Origin: a virus
Lineage: Duplodnaviria; Heunggongvirae; Uroviricota; Caudoviricetes
Virus record (IMG/VR): IMGVR_UViG_3300025913_000020
DNA: 64,000 bases
Direction: 5' to 3' (one strand)
The notes under the pieces are model-generated. The model was not told the DNA's origin, searched no databases, and worked only from the letters and a program-made list of their open reading frames with translations. The position numbers and the translations under genes are program-made. Positions 38,448-50,642 of the stretch are shown piece by piece; the first letter of the stretch is position 1; every line of letters starts with the position of its first letter.

Positions 38448-38481
38448 GTGAAAAATGTAAACAATTTATTGTTGGTGTCAA
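38448..38481 (-). promoter_or_regulatory. sigma70-like promoter on minus strand: TTGACA(38481-38476)-16 nt-TACATT(38459-38454)-6 nt-ATG(38447); -10 lies inside palindromic motif
   Basis: hexamers and spacing read directly; predicts leaderless transcript. Confidence 0.55.
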
Positions 38482-43793: not shown

Positions 43794-43834
43794 ATTGTAA
43801 ACAATTACAGTCCAATGTCAATACACAAAGTGTA
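43794..43834 (-). promoter_or_regulatory. sigma70-like promoter on minus strand: TTGACA(43821-43816)-16 nt-TACAAT(43799-43794)-7 nt-ATG(43786), plus upstream element TCAATACACAAAGTGTA
   Basis: read directly; second element recurs at 46141-46160. Confidence 0.55.
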
Positions 43835-44590: not shown

Positions 44591-45108
44591 ATCGCTTCTT
44601 TCGCTAGAACCAGCTCCACTTTCTCGACGCCGATTTTGCGTTGATCTCTCCACCAGCTTTCACGCCCCCAGTTGATGGCTAGGAGCTGCGCTTTCGCGGG
44701 GTCGTTGGCATACACTCCAATGCTGACTTTGGGAGCGGAGTCGCCCCACAGCGTGACATGATAGTCAAACGCACCGGACCCGATATGAAGCAGGTCGCGG
44801 CGTTCGGCTTCCTCCGCTGTGATCGTCGGGAAATCGGTAGGCGCTGGAATTGTGCTCCAGGACTGTGAGGTCGGGAGCGACTTGATTCCCTGCGGGCGCT
44901 TCCGACTGCAATACTTTCCATCCTTGGCGACCATTTTACCGGAGAGCAGATCAATCACGACGCCTTTGAATTTAGCCGTGTATTCGCACGCTGATTTTAT
45001 ATCAAAGTGCCGGTCGCGGGCGACCCAGTGATTGAATCGTCCGATCCAGGAGAAGACGAGATAGTTGCAGGGGCGTTTGTCGGTGATGGTTTGGGTGATA
45101 GTGTTCAT
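44587..45108 (-). CDS. hypothetical protein (173 aa)
   Basis: ATGA overlap. Confidence 0.45.
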   Translation of the reverse strand: MNTITQTITDKRPCNYLVFSWIGRFNHWVARDRHFDIKSACEYTAKFKGVVIDLLSGKMVAKDGKYCSRKRPQGIKSLPTSQSWSTIPAPTDFPTITAEEAERRDLLHIGSGAFDYHVTLWGDSAPKVSIGVYANDPAKAQLLAINWGRESWWRDQRKIGVEKVELVLAKEAI

Positions 45109-46109
45109 TATGCTGGCGGGTTGAAGTTTTCGTAAACAAATCGTTCAGTGTCGTCCACAGATAGTCCGGCTGCGGTAGCTGCTTTCCAGAGAGCCGAGCT
45201 GCGTTGGTCTTCTGCGCTGATGTCGCGGCGTTCGCGGAGACCTGGATTGGCTGCGAAGATCGCTTCCCATCTGGCAACGTCTTCGGGGTTGTGCTTCGTA
45301 ATGGTGAATTTGGCCGGGCGTTTCCAGAAGCCGAATAGCTCGTCGTTTTTGCTTGGCTCGAACGTGGCGGTAAATTCCACTTCATCACCCTTGCGCGGGA
45401 ACATCACCTGGCCAGCGGCGTTGTATTCAGGAGCATTGCCGAAGGCGCGCACACCGTTGCCGAAGTCGATGGTGAGCTTGGTGACCATTTTCCGAGGATC
45501 GAAGCCAGGAATAGTTTTGGTGGACAGGACAGTGCCTTTGACTGTGTGGCGGCCACTGAGAGCTTTGCCGGTCGCGGAGGCACGGCGCGCTTCGTCTTTT
45601 TCGCGGATGCTTTCGAGGGTGGTGATCTGCTTCTCGGACAGCTCACCGAAACGGCGCATCTTTTCCAGCATGTCCTTGGCGATCTTGGGAGCACGGGCCA
45701 GGCGGCACCAGCCGATGATGCTCATCGCCTCGGGGTGCGCGGTCAAGAAATCAGCTTCGCGCTTATTGCAAGCCAGGCGCTCGGCGAGGGCCACAGTGTG
45801 CTGTGCGATCATTCTGTCGAACCGGCGCAGATTTTCCACCTTGGCGGCACAGTCACGGCCAACCCAGTAGCCGGTGCCCGTGGGCGCGTGGACAATGGCG
45901 CAGGCGTACTTGAGAGTGTGGCCGCAACAGCCGCAGCGATTGGGTTGGTTTTGAGCTTTGAAAGTCTGCCAGAGCGGTTCGTCGATGACATCCATCTCAG
46001 CCTCGACTGATCCATTTTCTCCTGCGTCCGGGTTGAAGCCGAGGACCACGCAGACAGCAACGAGCCGGAGTTCGTTCACCGGCAGTCCTTTAATAGATTC
46101 GTTTGTCAT
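45108..46109 (-). CDS. hypothetical protein (333 aa) with CGCCGH zinc cluster
   Basis: leaderless promoter upstream. Confidence 0.5.
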   Translation of the reverse strand: MTNESIKGLPVNELRLVAVCVVLGFNPDAGENGSVEAEMDVIDEPLWQTFKAQNQPNRCGCCGHTLKYACAIVHAPTGTGYWVGRDCAAKVENLRRFDRMIAQHTVALAERLACNKREADFLTAHPEAMSIIGWCRLARAPKIAKDMLEKMRRFGELSEKQITTLESIREKDEARRASATGKALSGRHTVKGTVLSTKTIPGFDPRKMVTKLTIDFGNGVRAFGNAPEYNAAGQVMFPRKGDEVEFTATFEPSKNDELFGFWKRPAKFTITKHNPEDVARWEAIFAANPGLRERRDISAEDQRSSALWKAATAAGLSVDDTERFVYENFNPPA

Positions 46110-46116
46110 GCCAGAA

Positions 46117-46160
46117 ATGTAAACGAAATAGAATTGTTGTCAATACCCAAAGTGTAAATA
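46117..46160 (-). promoter_or_regulatory. sigma70-like promoter on minus strand: TTGACA(46144-46139)-16 nt-TACATT(46122-46117)-6/7 nt-ATG(46109), plus element TCAATACCCAAAGTGTAAAT
   Basis: read directly (coordinates +/-1). Confidence 0.5.
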
Positions 46161-46236: not shown

Positions 46237-46273
46237 CCCGGCCCTCTTAGGGTTGGAGGGCCGGGTTTGTTGG
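46237..46273 (+). terminator. plus-strand intrinsic-terminator-like hairpin CCCGGCCCTC-ttagggttg-GAGGGCCGGG followed by TTTGTTGG
   Basis: in 165-nt intergenic region; no annotated plus gene upstream, so may end a small RNA. Confidence 0.4.
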
Positions 46274-46274
46274 A

Positions 46275-46475
46275 GTGCGTATGAAATTTCGCTTAATAGC
46301 AGCACCGGTTGAGCGAGGGGACCTAAACAGGATTTTCTCTCTGTTCGAAGTCGCGCAATTCCTCGAAATAGCTGTTGAAGACCTGGCCCTGCGCGGAAAA
46401 CTCTCGGGAAACGTCAGCCTGGATGGCTATACTTTCGAGGTTGTTCGCAGCGTGCAGGGTTCAAGTTTCAAATAG
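46275..46475 (+). CDS. excisionase/MerR-like HTH_17-type small DNA-binding protein (tentative)
   Basis: 66 aa, GTG start; SLFEVAQFLEIAVEDLALRGKLSG fits E-V-A-x-x-L-x-I-x-x-x-x-L-x-x-x-x-x-G-K-L pattern of Xis/AlpA-type HTH. Confidence 0.4.
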   Translation: MRMKFRLIAAPVERGDLNRIFSLFEVAQFLEIAVEDLALRGKLSGNVSLDGYTFEVVRSVQGSSFK

Positions 46476-48221
46476 CGTTGCGCTGGCTCGGATTCTCAGC
46501 TCGCGATCCTGTTCCATCAGGTCGGGAGCGCGCAGGGCTGTTAGCGCGTTTCCAAACGTGCTGGAGTTCACGCTGTATCCCGTCGCGTCTGAAATCTCCT
46601 GGCGCGTGGCAAACTCCGGGAAGCGCGTCAGCAGGTAACTGAAAATCTTTCCCGCTGCGCCGCTCAGCTTATTCACCCAGAGATTTCTCAGAGCTTCACC
46701 TTTTGGCAACGGTTCAAAGTTTTTCAACAGGGCGCGAGCCTCGGGTATTGCAGTCAGCGTGTCGCCGCTGCGGATGATCGCGTTGTTTTTGGAAAGCTCG
46801 GTCAGCCCGTTGCCGAACGTGCTTGAAGTCACGCTGTAGCCGGATAGAAGCGCGGCCTGGCTGCGGGTCCGCCCTTCGGGATAACTGAGCAGCACGGTCA
46901 GAATCGCTGACGCACACTTGGAAAGTCCACCCGAGGATGGATCATGCACCGGCGATGAAAAATCGTGCCGAGTGGCGACAACTGGAGCCGGGATCGCCTT
47001 GGGTGCTACCGGTGTCGCAACCGCCATACTCGTCTTCTGGATCACGATCAATTTGTTTACAATATCGGTGCGTAGCGCTACCGCCTGATTGGCCAGCTCA
47101 GAGAAGTTCACCACCGTCTTGCTGAAAGTAGTGCAGGCTTCCTCGATTCGCTTCAGAGTTTTTTCCTGCTCGGGCGTTAGCACGGGAACTTCGACCTTTT
47201 CGATTCGCGTGTCCACGACCGTCACCGGCCTGGGCGCGACAGCGGCCTGTTCCGCTTTTACCAGCTTTTGTTTCAAAACAGCCACTTGTTGTTTCAAATG
47301 GGCCGGATCATTCTCGTTGGCGCGCTCAATCGTTTCACGAATCTCATTTCCCAGGCGCACGAGATCGACCTTGGCCAGCTTTTGCGGGATGATGACTTTT
47401 TCACCTGCCTTGGGCGTGGCTGATGAGTTGAAGGTCCGGCGCTGCCGGATGGTGATCCGTTGAAAGATGCGCAGCCAGCCGGGCGACCATATCCAGCCCT
47501 CGCCGGTGTGAAGCGATGCCAGGGACTGCATCATGATGTCGCGCTGTTCCTTCGTGCCGTTGCGCTTCACCCAATCGTCGATGGCGTCCTGGTCCTGGGG
47601 CGAGTTGAGCTGAAGTACGATCAACAGTTCGGTCTGAGTGAAGACATTCTTATTGAGCACAGCCGGGCGCTGCGTGATCAGCGTCGTGCCAATCCCACGG
47701 ATGCCTCCCCGGCGCACCAGGGCTTCGAAGGCTCCGAGCATTCGCTGCTGGCCGTCCTGGGGTTTCTGGGGAGCGAAAGAGTCGGCTTCGTCCACGAACA
47801 GGTGCAGCGGATTGCGGTTTTGATTTTTACGCCGGTAGAGGCGTTCGGCAAAGTCAGTGGCGAAGCGATCCTGCTGTGCGTTGCTTTCGGTCGAGGAGAG
47901 GTCGATGACGTAGTAGCCAGGATGGTCAACCACCATGTCGGCGATGACCCGGCCTGCCGTATATTCCAGTGGAACGTCCGCGTGCTCACCGCCGATGATC
48001 ACCACTGGCAAACCTTCGCGCAGACCGTTTGCTGATGAACGCAGGCCCCACCAGGCACCGGTCGGATCGAGCACGGCAAACGGCTGTGACGCCGCCACCA
48101 GCTCCTCGGCGATCACCGATCCTGTGTAGGTCTTACCGACCCGGCGCATGGCCATGATGGAACACGTCTGGGTGACGAAATCCAACGGCAGCGTCAGTTC
48201 CTTTGAGATTTTGAGGCTCAT
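46461..48221 (-). CDS. FtsK/HerA-superfamily P-loop ATPase with two C-terminal tandem winged-HTH (FtsK-gamma-like) repeats
   Basis: 586 aa; Walker A AMRRVGKTY, FAVLDPTGAWWG, Walker B LHLFVDEAD; C-terminal repeats ...SGYSVTSSTFGNGLTEL... and ...TGYSVNSSTFGNALTAL... Confidence 0.7.
   Translation of the reverse strand: MSLKISKELTLPLDFVTQTCSIMAMRRVGKTYTGSVIAEELVAASQPFAVLDPTGAWWGLRSSANGLREGLPVVIIGGEHADVPLEYTAGRVIADMVVDHPGYYVIDLSSTESNAQQDRFATDFAERLYRRKNQNRNPLHLFVDEADSFAPQKPQDGQQRMLGAFEALVRRGGIRGIGTTLITQRPAVLNKNVFTQTELLIVLQLNSPQDQDAIDDWVKRNGTKEQRDIMMQSLASLHTGEGWIWSPGWLRIFQRITIRQRRTFNSSATPKAGEKVIIPQKLAKVDLVRLGNEIRETIERANENDPAHLKQQVAVLKQKLVKAEQAAVAPRPVTVVDTRIEKVEVPVLTPEQEKTLKRIEEACTTFSKTVVNFSELANQAVALRTDIVNKLIVIQKTSMAVATPVAPKAIPAPVVATRHDFSSPVHDPSSGGLSKCASAILTVLLSYPEGRTRSQAALLSGYSVTSSTFGNGLTELSKNNAIIRSGDTLTAIPEARALLKNFEPLPKGEALRNLWVNKLSGAAGKIFSYLLTRFPEFATRQEISDATGYSVNSSTFGNALTALRAPDLMEQDRELRIRASATLFET
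47048..47068 (-). promoter_or_regulatory. internal motif copy TCAATTTGTTTACAATATCGG inside ATPase gene, 23 nt upstream of in-frame ATG at 47027
   Basis: would express the C-terminal 188-aa tandem wHTH part separately. Confidence 0.3.
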
Positions 48222-48241: not shown

Positions 48242-48481
48242 TTACTTTACTTCCAGGACGACGCGAAATTGGGCCAGACCACAGTTGGTGCAGCGCCGGA
48301 ACTGGATGAATTGAGCGTTTTTGCCGTTGTTCTCGTCCGGGTCAGGATCGCCCCATTGACCCCATTCGTGGGTGTGGACGACTTCAGGATTTGCGGGGTG
48401 GACGTGGACGGCGAGGAGCGCGGTTCCTCCGACCACCAGGATTAGGGCCGCCAGAAGCGGCAGAAAGACTTTTTTCTTCAT
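48242..48481 (-). CDS. small secreted/membrane protein with CTNCG motif
   Basis: signal peptide MKKKVFLPLLAALILVVGGTALLAV. Confidence 0.4.
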   Translation of the reverse strand: MKKKVFLPLLAALILVVGGTALLAVHVHPANPEVVHTHEWGQWGDPDPDENNGKNAQFIQFRRCTNCGLAQFRVVLEVK

Positions 48482-50617: not shown

Positions 50618-50642
50618 GTGAAAAATGTAAACAATTTTTTGC
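50618..50642. promoter_or_regulatory. motif GTGAAAAATGTAAACAATTTTTTGC in divergent region
   Basis: 7 nt from minus ATG 50614; 38 nt from plus ATG 50676. Confidence 0.55.

What the first reader, a model, noticed from the sequence alone, without database searches (positions are those of the whole stretch)
46461..48221. FtsK/HerA-like ATPase with tandem gamma-like winged-helix repeats, plus possible nested gene from an internal motif
The 586-aa protein has Walker A GKT, a VLDPTG segment and a Walker B DEAD box of the FtsK/HerA/TraD clade. Its C-terminus holds two ~45-aa repeats (S/TGYSVxSSTFGNxLTxL) that look like FtsK-gamma-type sequence-reading wHTH domains. A motif copy lies inside the gene at 47051-47064, 23 nt upstream of an in-frame ATG at 47027. 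That start would produce the 188-aa double-wHTH module alone. Together they could be a DNA pump plus a free DNA-recognition subunit, with a role in packaging, segregation, or an unknown conflict system. No homologous arrangement is obvious to me.
Basis: partly seen in the sequence, partly recalled or inferred. Interest (0 to 1): 0.6.

Follow-up and report, generated by a model that had tools for sequence, protein, structure and literature searches.

The report
Phage HerA-type motor with paired DNA-readers
This phage gene encodes a HerA/FtsK-class ATPase tethered to two matched winged-helix DNA-binding domains; it belongs to a very large, unstudied family found in phages, prophages and plasmids, and probably acts as a sequence-guided DNA motor, while the proposed hidden second gene inside it remains weakly supported.

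Summary
The 586-aa ORF, its ATPase motifs, the C-terminal repeat, the internal motif copy and the in-frame ATG 23 nt downstream are all present as described.

- **ATPase:** the core belongs to the HerA clade of the FtsK/HerA superfamily. It lacks HerA's N-terminal barrel and has no partner nuclease.
- **C-terminus:** two MarR/ArsR-like winged helices, with no specific link to FtsK-gamma.
- **Family size:** the architecture is not unique. About 9,000 representatives of 50%-identity clusters carry the tandem module, in phages, prophages and large plasmids of many phyla. None had a functional name or description in the sources and literature I could search.
- **Not the terminase:** classical large terminases sit 5-19 genes downstream in related phages.
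- **New observation:** the two recognition helices co-vary within each protein (64% identity) but differ between proteins (37%). This points to lineage-specific recognition of a duplicated DNA site.
- **Best reading:** a sequence-guided dsDNA translocase acting on the element's own DNA.
- **Nested gene:** the motif is a real promoter-proximal element of this phage, and the internal copy is conserved in the two closest relatives. It is absent in all more distant ones, and the conservation is not beyond chance. I estimate about 0.15.

The parts
46461..48221 (-). Complete gene, 586 aa: HerA-clade ATPase, helical linker, disordered Pro/Ala linker and tandem winged helix
   Evidence: ORF listing and translation. 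An identical protein, P0001, lies on a 245-kb contig. AF2 model has mean pLDDT 89.
47436..48221 (-). Compact RecA-like ATPase domain (residues 1-262) with no N-terminal HAS barrel
   Evidence: Foldseek matches HerA chains at E 1e-13 to 1e-9 and covers STIV2 B204 at TM 0.76. Partial HerA profile hits. pLDDT is above 95.
48129..48152 (-). Walker A / P-loop, A24-MRRVGKT31
   Evidence: Read from the sequence. G29 and K30 are invariant; A24 and T31 are at least 90% conserved.
48057..48074 (-). HerA-type VLDPTG motif (residues 50-55)
   Evidence: Aligns with vlDPHGDY of solved HerA 9x1l. D52 and P53 are invariant.
47781..47807 (-). Walker B, LHLFVDEAD (residues 139-147)
   Evidence: Aligns with HerA EEAHiFAP. 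D144, E145 and D147 are invariant. Two family members carry an intein inserted directly after this motif.
47664..47675 (-). TQRP motif (residues 183-186), typical of FtsK/HerA-class pumps
   Evidence: Aligns with SQRPs of HerA. Q184 and R185 are invariant.
47397..47447 (-). Conserved extended tail after the ATPase (R259...TFNSSATPK...G273)
   Evidence: R259, T263, T269 and P270 are invariant. The model shows it as non-helical and extended. Its role is unknown.
47028..47363 (-). Two long helices (residues 287-328 and 350-398), a possible coiled-coil stalk or oligomerisation element
   Evidence: AF2 secondary structure. Sequence is poorly conserved across the family.
46929..47027 (-). Disordered Pro/Ala-rich tether (residues 399-431)
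   Evidence: pLDDT is below 50 for 397-429. The alignment here is gap-rich and variable, with P 14% and A 14%.
46722..46928 (-). Winged helix 1 (residues 432-500)
46464..46703 (-). Winged helix 2 (residues 507-586)
   Evidence: Same evidence as winged helix 1.
46782..46844 (-). Recognition helix region of winged helix 1 (residues 460-480, SGYSVTSSTFGNGLTELSKNN)
   Evidence: Co-varies with the matching segment of winged helix 2: 0.64 identity within a protein against 0.37 between proteins, and 0 of 2000 permutations reach this.
46521..46583 (-). Recognition helix region of winged helix 2 (residues 547-567, TGYSVNSSTFGNALTALRAPD)
   Evidence: A DNA-level repeat is also detected.
47051..47064 (-). 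Internal copy of the phage's promoter-proximal motif (TATTGTAAACAAAT). It encodes I387-V-N-K-L391.
   Evidence: Conserved exactly in L004 and L006, absent in L003, L175 and L176.
47025..47027 (-). In-frame ATG (Met399), the hypothetical start of a 188-aa tandem winged-helix product
   Evidence: A Met at or near this boundary occurs in 6 of the 7 closest relatives, but not across the family.

Best explanation
The gene encodes a member of a very large, uncharacterised family of ATPases carried by mobile elements.

**Architecture**
- A compact HerA-clade (FtsK/HerA superfamily) P-loop motor.
- A helical stalk and a roughly 30-residue disordered tether.
- A rigid pair of MarR-like winged-helix domains whose recognition helices are kept alike within each protein.

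**Proposed mechanism**
- The paired winged helices read two adjacent copies of a lineage-specific DNA sequence, most likely on the element's own genome.
- This brings the motor to the DNA. The motor assembles as a ring, as other HerA/FtsK pumps do, and translocates double-stranded DNA using ATP.
- The job would be replication-coupled: moving, segregating, resolving or otherwise processing genome copies. It is not headful packaging.

**What is shown and what is inferred**
- Shown: the fold, intact catalytic motifs, a DNA-binding-type winged-helix fold, the within-protein co-variation, the distribution across mobile elements, and coexistence with classical terminases.
- Inferred: ring assembly, translocation, the identity of the DNA target, and the biological process.
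For: **Motor**
- HerA signature motifs are present and invariant.
- Foldseek finds HerA hexamer subunits at E down to 7e-14 and the viral pump B204 at TM 0.76.

**DNA-reading module**
- The tandem winged-helix model has pLDDT 96 and pTM 0.85.

**Co-variation of the two recognition helices**
- Identity is 0.64 within a protein against 0.37 between proteins. No permutation out of 2000 reaches this.
- A protein's own second repeat is closer than an orthologous first repeat in 92% of comparisons.
- The effect also holds in very divergent members and in ATPase-less proteins with three repeats.
- It is not recent gene conversion. Only 6 of 13 identical residues share a codon.

**Genomic context**
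- No fixed partner gene. Recurrent neighbours are DUF5131, integrase, ParB-like proteins, DNA methylases, YqaJ, SF1 and DnaB-like helicases, and (at one split locus) RecT.
- The family also occurs on large actinobacterial plasmids.

**Importance of the ATPase**
- Two members carry an intein immediately after Walker B. From general knowledge, inteins usually sit in conserved sites of important DNA enzymes.

**Modularity**
- One natural variant has the ATPase and the winged-helix halves separated by a single stop codon. This would be compatible with the two halves working as separate modules, but could equally be a mutation or sequencing error.
Against: - No DNA target was identified. Iteron-like 9-mer arrays are not enriched next to or inside the gene in 158 loci, and nothing stood out in the window.
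- HerA's HAS barrel, which helps ring formation in HerA, is missing, so hexamer formation is unproven.
- Hypervariable readers would fit a conflict system equally well.
- The recognition helices of the window protein carry few basic residues.
- No experiment exists for any family member, and no source gives one a functional name.
Confidence: 0.4

Rival explanations
1. Conflict system. The protein is a superinfection-exclusion, defence or anti-defence factor. Its winged-helix pair recognises sequences on competing phages, plasmids or host DNA, and its motor strips proteins from that DNA or disrupts it.
For: - HerA ATPases are the motor of several anti-phage systems, and those are the best structural matches.
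- The specificity helices are hypervariable, as expected in an arms race.
- The gene is accessory and patchily distributed. It sits among methylases, ParB-like proteins and DUF5131, genes often found in early or anti-restriction regions.
Against: - No effector partner such as Sir2, a nuclease or DUF4297 is nearby.
- PADLOC models match only part of the ATPase.
- The gene holds a conserved syntenic position in a clade of contigs of roughly 245-250 kb.
- Inteins are more typical of core DNA enzymes.
Confidence: 0.2
2. Packaging function. The protein is the packaging ATPase, as its PHROG 2666 label 'terminase large subunit' suggests, or a pac-site recognition helper that hands DNA to the terminase.
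For: - PHROG 2666 hit at E 3.7e-15.
- Fold similarity to the STIV2 B204 packaging ATPase.
- In about 18 viral loci the gene lies 5-19 genes upstream of TerL on the same strand.
- Sequence-specific winged helices would suit pac recognition.
Against: - Classical TerL genes (PHROGs 38, 15, 9) coexist in those loci, and in MW202482 the gene lies far from TerL and portal.
- There is no nuclease domain.
- The family also occurs on plasmids and on integrated elements whose flanks show no recognisable virion genes.
- The window comes from a tailed phage, and tailed phages use TerL by established knowledge.
Confidence: 0.07
3. Nested gene, as an add-on to any of the above. In this phage and its two nearest relatives the internal motif acts as a promoter, and Met399 starts a free 188-aa tether-plus-tandem-winged-helix protein that competes with or guides the full-length motor.
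For: - The motif is a genuine element of this phage, mostly 1-35 nt upstream of start codons, in both orientations.
- Several copies form the -10 part of TTGACA-16/17-TACAWT promoters.
- The internal copy has an exact core, with about 0.1 expected by chance in the whole window.
- It sits in the longest three-way identical nucleotide run of the gene, inside an otherwise poorly conserved region, and an ATG lies 20-23 nt downstream in all three genomes.
- A Met at this domain boundary is present in 6 of the 7 closest relatives.
- The phage rarely uses Shine-Dalgarno sequences (7 of 76 starts), so the lack of one is not an objection.
- A split variant and stand-alone winged-helix proteins exist elsewhere.
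Against: - The motif is absent from the gene in relatives at 70%, 57% and 56% identity, although those phages use the motif elsewhere.
- The conserved run is barely longer than others (20 against 19, 17, 17, 17 nt) and encodes conserved residues IVNKLI.
- No -35 element lies upstream.
- Met is not enriched in the linker family-wide: 1.27% against 1.54% overall.
- On the opposite strand the same site reads TTGTTTACAAT, the commoner orientation, so an antisense promoter or a regulator binding site is equally possible.
Confidence: 0.15

Closest known systems
HerA helicases/translocases (archaeal HerA-NurA; bacterial Sir2-HerA and DUF4297-HerA defence complexes)
   Same: - RecA-like core with the same signature motifs: Walker A, DPxG, DEAx-FAP and (T/S)QRP.
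- These are the best sequence and structure matches.
   Different: - No N-terminal HAS barrel.
- The ATPase is only about 260 aa.
- Scores fall far below the family cut-offs (47 bits against 970).
- No NurA, Sir2 or DUF4297 partner is nearby.
- It carries a C-terminal stalk, tether and tandem winged helix that HerA lacks.
FtsK / SpoIIIE and Streptomyces TraB (motor plus C-terminal winged helix reading KOPS, SRS or TRS 8-mers)
   Same: - Same superfamily of dsDNA pumps.
- Same design logic: a motor followed by a flexible linker and a winged-helix sequence reader at the C-terminus.
   Different: - No FtsK_SpoIIIE Pfam domain, no FtsK_gamma hit and no membrane anchor.
- Two readers per chain instead of one.
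- The readers are MarR-like and hypervariable between lineages.
- The gene is carried by phages and plasmids rather than by the chromosome.
Minimal viral FtsK/HerA-type packaging ATPases (STIV2 B204, PRD1 P9 class)
   Same: - A compact ATPase core without a HAS barrel.
- TM-score of 0.76 over the whole of B204.
   Different: - Those enzymes belong to membrane-containing viruses with double-jelly-roll capsids and have no DNA-reading domain.
- Here the host genomes are tailed phages with their own TerL, or plasmids.
Initiator and partition proteins that read repeated sites with winged helices (iteron-binding Rep proteins with WH1 and WH2, archaeal Orc1/Cdc6, TubR)
   Same: - Winged-helix readers of element-specific repeated DNA sites.
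- Lineage-specific specificity would parallel incompatibility groups.
   Different: - A different ATPase class, or none at all.
- No iteron arrays were found near the gene.
- The resemblance is functional analogy only, recalled from general knowledge, and was not tested for homology.

Membership tests
HerA (Pfam DUF87 + HerA_C; NCBIfam NF040819) | RecA-like core with HerA motifs (Walker A, DPxG, DEAx-FAP, S/TQRP) | tested here: met
   Residue-level alignment to solved HerA 9x1l. The motifs are invariant in 117 homologues. Foldseek E is 7e-14 to HerA.
HerA (Pfam DUF87 + HerA_C; NCBIfam NF040819) | N-terminal HAS-barrel domain preceding the ATPase | tested here: not met
   Walker A begins at residue 24. 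The AF2 model starts directly with the ATPase sheet.
HerA (Pfam DUF87 + HerA_C; NCBIfam NF040819) | Score above the curated family thresholds over the full model | tested here: not met
   Pfam gives 12.8 and 14.4 bits against cut-offs of 23.2 and 22. NCBIfam gives 47 bits against 970, and only profile positions 382-501 of 561 match.
HerA (Pfam DUF87 + HerA_C; NCBIfam NF040819) | Adjacent partner (NurA nuclease, or a Sir2/DUF4297 effector in defence systems) | tested here: not met
   No conserved neighbour in 158 loci. The window neighbours have no such domains.
HerA (Pfam DUF87 + HerA_C; NCBIfam NF040819) | Hexameric ring that translocates dsDNA | not testable with these tools
   Only a monomer model could be made. 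This needs multimer prediction, cryo-EM or biochemistry.
FtsK / SpoIIIE / TraB | FtsK_SpoIIIE alpha/beta motor domain (PF01580) | tested here: not met
   No hit at E up to 1 in Pfam. The best folds are HerA, not FtsK.
FtsK / SpoIIIE / TraB | Gamma-type winged helix (PF09397) | tested here: not met
FtsK / SpoIIIE / TraB | N-terminal membrane anchor | tested here: not met
   The maximum 19-residue Kyte-Doolittle hydropathy is 1.17, and that peak lies in the Pro/Ala linker.
FtsK / SpoIIIE / TraB | Loading directed by short polar DNA motifs | not testable with these tools
No target motif was found.
Tailed-phage large terminase (the PHROG 2666 label) | Terminase ATPase fused to an RNase-H-like nuclease, acting as the genome's packaging enzyme next to the portal | tested here: not met
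   No terminase Pfam hit and no nuclease domain. Classical TerL genes coexist in related loci and in MW202482. The PHROG 2666 hit covers only residues 8-226.
FtsK/HerA-type packaging ATPase of membrane-containing viruses | Encoded by a virus with a double-jelly-roll capsid and no TerL | tested here: not met
   The window encodes tail and tail-spike proteins. Related contigs encode classical TerL. Only the fold similarity to B204 is met.
MarR/ArsR-like winged-helix DNA-binding domains | Three-helix bundle plus beta-hairpin wing, with helix 3 as the recognition helix | tested here: met

The most novel reading that the evidence does not exclude
The family is a new class of self-recognising DNA motor for mobile elements. 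It would be a HerA-type pump steered by a pair of co-evolving, lineage-specific reader heads, working like a portable FtsK-KOPS system that phages and plasmids use to segregate, resolve or initiate replication of their own genomes. In this phage subclade, a nested promoter and start would additionally release the free reader pair as a regulator.
Probability: 0.15. Interest if true: 0.8.

Novelty: new variant of a known kind. Interest (0 to 1): 0.5.

Why it matters
- **Scale.** The tandem winged-helix module occurs in about 9,000 representatives of 50%-identity protein clusters (7,023 at E up to 1e-10). It is spread over phages, prophages and large plasmids of Nitrospirota, Acidobacteriota, Planctomycetota, Chloroflexota, Actinomycetota, Spirochaetota and others. 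The only functional label it has anywhere is a probably wrong 'terminase large subunit' in PHROGs.
- **Mechanism.** If the motor is steered by paired, co-evolving readers, it would be a mobile-element counterpart of FtsK-KOPS. It would also be a natural example of re-targetable DNA recognition attached to a translocase.
- **Testability.** The co-variation gives a direct hypothesis: swap the recognition helices and the specificity should change.
- **Annotation.** The result also corrects how these genes should be labelled.

Tried and rejected
1. **Terminase or packaging ATPase.** Rejected. Classical TerL genes of three PHROG families coexist downstream, as do TerL and portal in MW202482.
2. **FtsK-gamma kinship.** Rejected.
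3. **Known defence system.** PADLOC gives only partial HerA hits, and no partner gene is present.
4. **Conserved partner gene.** All-against-all clustering of neighbours in 86 and then 158 loci found none. The best candidate is DUF5131, in 28 of 158 loci at variable offsets.
5. **Binding sites near the gene.** The repeat finder and tandem-repeat finder found nothing in the window. A scan for 9-mer arrays across 158 loci showed no enrichment.
6. **Recent gene conversion as the cause of the matched helices.** Not supported at the codon level. Helices 1 and 2 show the effect less or not at all.
7. **Family-wide internal start.** Met is not enriched in the linker, and the Met399 column is mostly gaps.
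8. **More close relatives to test the nested gene.**
   - An exact-pattern scan of metagenome and viral contigs found nothing, and a protein-seeded scan of metagenome contigs also found nothing.
   - P0006 has no retrievable DNA.
9. **Antisense ORF downstream of the motif.** It is open in all three relatives but has no conserved start.
10. **Identity of the neighbouring 486-aa and 623-aa proteins.** No PHROG, Pfam or PDB sequence match.
Full report
**Observation**

The minus-strand ORF at 46461-48221 encodes 586 aa. Its motifs are as follows:
- Walker A is A24-MRRVGKT31.
- A VLDPTG segment lies at residues 50-55.
- Walker B is LHLFVDEAD at residues 139-147.
- A TQRP motif lies at residues 183-186.

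The key residues G29, K30, D52, P53, D144, E145, D147, Q184 and R185 are invariant in an alignment of 117 full-length homologues. The 'DEAD' tetrapeptide is not a DEAD-box. It aligns with the EEAH-FAP Walker B of a solved HerA.

The C-terminal repeat is visible in the protein and also in the DNA. The DNA copies are 41 nt long, 80% identical and 261 nt apart.

The internal motif TATTGTAAACAAAT lies at 47051-47064. The in-frame ATG at 47027 is Met399, 23 nt downstream, and would give a 188-aa product.

**What the ATPase is**

Sequence profiles give only partial, sub-threshold HerA hits:
- Pfam HerA_C and DUF87 score 14 and 13 bits.
- NCBIfam HerA gives E 1e-12 but 47 bits against a cut-off of 970.
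- PADLOC HerA models match part of the domain.

PDB sequence search finds HerA chains. The AlphaFold2 model has mean pLDDT 89, with the ATPase above 95. Foldseek matches it to HerA subunits from HerA-NurA, Sir2-HerA and DUF4297-HerA complexes at E 7e-14 to 1e-9. It also covers the whole minimal viral pump STIV2 B204 at TM 0.76.

The core is therefore HerA-clade within the FtsK/HerA superfamily. It begins at residue 1, so HerA's HAS barrel is absent, and it has no membrane segment.

**What the C-terminus is**

The order after the ATPase is:
- an invariant extended tail (R259...TFNSSATPK);
- two long helices (residues 287-328 and 350-398);
- a disordered Pro/Ala tether (residues 397-429);
- two helix-helix-helix-strand-strand units.

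Modelled alone, the last 157 residues give pLDDT 96 and pTM 0.85, which suggests a fixed arrangement of the two domains.

So 'tandem winged helix' is confirmed and 'gamma-like' is not.

**The family**

The arrangement is not an orphan:
- A word-indexed search found 1,989 proteins. The best 120 have E values of 1e-142 or better, and nearly all of them are 545-630 aa and cover 91-100% of the query.
- A profile of the tandem module finds 8,991 representatives of 50%-identity clusters, 7,023 of them at E up to 1e-10.
- Relatives lie on 278 IMG/VR contigs.
- They occur in genomes of Nitrospira, Acidobacteriota, Chloroflexota, Planctomycetota, Verrucomicrobiota, Gemmatimonadota, Spirochaetota including Leptospira, Myxococcota and many Actinomycetota.
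- They occur on large plasmids such as M. avium p1-JPH1 and Clavibacter sepedonicus pCSL1.
- Only one record among 50,697 deposited phage genomes has the gene. That record is MW202482, where it is annotated 'hera helicase'.

Where names exist they are generic: 'hypothetical', 'DUF87 domain-containing' or 'helicase HerA-like domain-containing'. Three literature searches found no description of this architecture.

**Context**

The window is part of a 245-kb contig. It encodes tail and tail-spike proteins, a DNA methyltransferase and sugar epimerases, so it is a large tailed phage. Most of its genes have no family match.

The gene keeps the same place in related contigs of 34-250 kb. It sits after large fibre-like proteins and before a conserved run of products of roughly 480, 175, 143, 620-646 and 258 aa, with one or two members missing or not reached in some contigs.

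Clustering all neighbours in 158 loci shows no obligatory partner. The recurrent neighbours are:
- DUF5131, in 28 loci;
- tyrosine integrase, in 19 loci;
- ParB-like proteins, in 14 loci;
- C5 and N6 DNA methylases, YqaJ, SF1 and DnaB-like helicases, and MoxR with VWA;
- RecT, seen once, at the split locus L171.

Three different classical TerL families lie 5-19 genes downstream in about 18 viral loci. MW202482 has its own TerL and portal far from the gene. The PHROG 2666 label 'terminase large subunit' should therefore not be transferred to this protein.

**New observation: the two readers co-vary**

Across the 117 homologues, the helix-3 segment of winged helix 1 is 64% identical to that of winged helix 2 in the same protein. 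It is only 37% identical to winged helix 2 of other proteins, and 40% identical to the orthologous winged helix 1.

No permutation out of 2000 reaches the observed value. In 92% of comparisons a protein's own second repeat is closer than an orthologous first repeat.

Examples of matched pairs:
- SSTFGNGL with SSTFGNAL;
- SGGFKNAL with SGGFKNAL;
- KRSSRDTYLQRL with QRSSRDTYIQRL;
- GGTWRTYL with GGTWRTYL.

The pattern holds in members so divergent that tblastn matched only their ATPase. It also holds in ATPase-less proteins with three repeats.

Helix 2 does not show the effect, and in the window only 6 of 13 identical residues share a codon. Recent whole-domain gene conversion is therefore unlikely. 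Selection for two equal readers is the simpler reading. This is what one expects if the pair binds two copies of one lineage-specific DNA sequence.

**Mechanism proposed**

The paired readers dock on a duplicated site. The roughly 30-residue tether and the helical stalk connect them to a HerA-type motor. The motor assembles on the DNA and pumps double-stranded DNA.

Given the neighbours and the presence on plasmids, I favour a role on the element's own replicating DNA, such as segregation, resolution or processing of copies. My confidence is 0.4. Ring formation, translocation and the target are all inferred.

I could not find the target. No iteron-like arrays are enriched near the gene, and nothing stands out in the window.

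The rivals are a conflict role (0.2) and a packaging helper (0.07).

**The nested-gene idea**

The motif itself is real. Its core TTGTWWACAA has 20 copies at up to 1 mismatch against 2.4 expected. Most copies lie 1-35 nt upstream of start codons, and both orientations occur.

Several copies form the -10 part of TTGACA-16/17-TACAWT promoters, with the ATG 6-10 nt after the hexamer. One of these lies at 46143-46116, in front of the next gene. This suggests leaderless mRNAs, and it fits the fact that only 7 of 76 gene starts have a Shine-Dalgarno-like sequence.

Points in favour of the internal copy being functional:
- Its core is exact, with about 0.1 expected by chance in the whole window.
- It lies in the longest three-way identical nucleotide run of the gene among the window, L004 and L006, which are 80% identical proteins.
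- An ATG follows at 20-23 nt in all three.
- A Met at this boundary occurs in 6 of the 7 nearest relatives.

Points against:
- That run is only 20 nt, against 19, 17, 17 and 17 nt elsewhere in the gene, and it encodes conserved residues.
- The motif is missing from the gene in relatives at 70%, 57% and 56% identity, even though those phages use the motif elsewhere.
- There is no -35 element upstream.
- Met is not enriched in the linker across the family.
- On the plus strand the site reads TTGTTTACAAT, the commoner orientation.

No further close relatives could be retrieved. I put the nested gene at about 0.15. It would be a subclade feature at most.

One natural variant (L171) has the two halves separated by a single in-frame stop codon. 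If genuine rather than a mutation or sequencing error, it would suggest that a free reader module is viable in principle.

**Verdict**

The protein is a new architectural variant of a known motor class and belongs to a huge unstudied family.

Noticed in passing
window 46275-46475 (+): A 66-aa ORF runs convergent to the target gene and overlaps its last 15 nt. It is 95% identical in L006 and 83% identical in L004, so it is better conserved than the ATPase itself, and it looks helix-turn-helix-like by eye. It was not called as a gene on the source contig. It is probably a real small gene and is the only plus-strand gene in this stretch.
   Followed up: partly
window-wide, e.g. 43795-43804, 38455-38464, 50625-50634, 46116-46143: A near-palindromic motif, AAAATTGTTTACAWTTTT, is enriched about 8-fold. 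Several copies form TTGACA-16/17-TACAWT promoters whose -10 hexamer ends 6-10 nt before the ATG. Only 7 of 76 gene starts have a Shine-Dalgarno-like sequence. Together these suggest widespread leaderless or very short-leader mRNAs in this phage.
   Followed up: partly
window 47268-47275, 47289-47296, 47330-47337 (-): Three TGAAAC(G/A)A 8-mers lie inside the stalk-coding region, spaced 41 and 21 nt apart. They are 3 of only 4 copies in the whole 64-kb window. They are exactly conserved, in different reading frames, in L004 and L006 and absent in L003. They could be a DNA-level signal or could reflect shared ancestry.
   Followed up: partly
proteins P0226 and P0238 (family members): Both carry an intein of about 330 aa with a LAGLIDADG-like motif. 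It is inserted directly after the Walker B DEADxF motif and is flanked by Cys at its start and Asn-Cys at its end.
   Followed up: no
L171 2077-3810: The ATPase half (347 aa) and the tandem winged-helix half (155 aa as called) lie in the same frame, separated by one TAA stop codon, next to a RecT gene. This could be a natural split, a readthrough site or a sequencing error.
   Followed up: partly
L172 6001-7119 (P0121), and P0123: These proteins have no ATPase and carry three copies of the same winged-helix repeat, again with matched recognition helices. P0121 lies in a phage-like context with Peptidase_M23 and a resolvase.
   Followed up: no
window 48242-48481 (-): A small predicted membrane-anchored protein (79 aa, with a CxxC motif) lies immediately upstream of the target, 20 nt from its start codon. 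It is conserved at 36% identity in L003 and is probably co-transcribed with the target.
   Followed up: no
window 45108-46109 (-): The downstream 333-aa protein has a Cys-rich N-terminal part. Its C-terminal part matches three PHROGs of unknown function (18425, 4750, 4265). It is conserved at 60% identity in L003 and is not found next to more distant family members.
   Followed up: partly
window 46237-46265: A perfect 10-bp GC-rich inverted repeat (CCCGGCCCTC ... GAGGGCCGGG) with a 9-nt loop lies in the 350-nt gap between the target gene and the next gene. It could be a terminator or a protein binding site.
   Followed up: no
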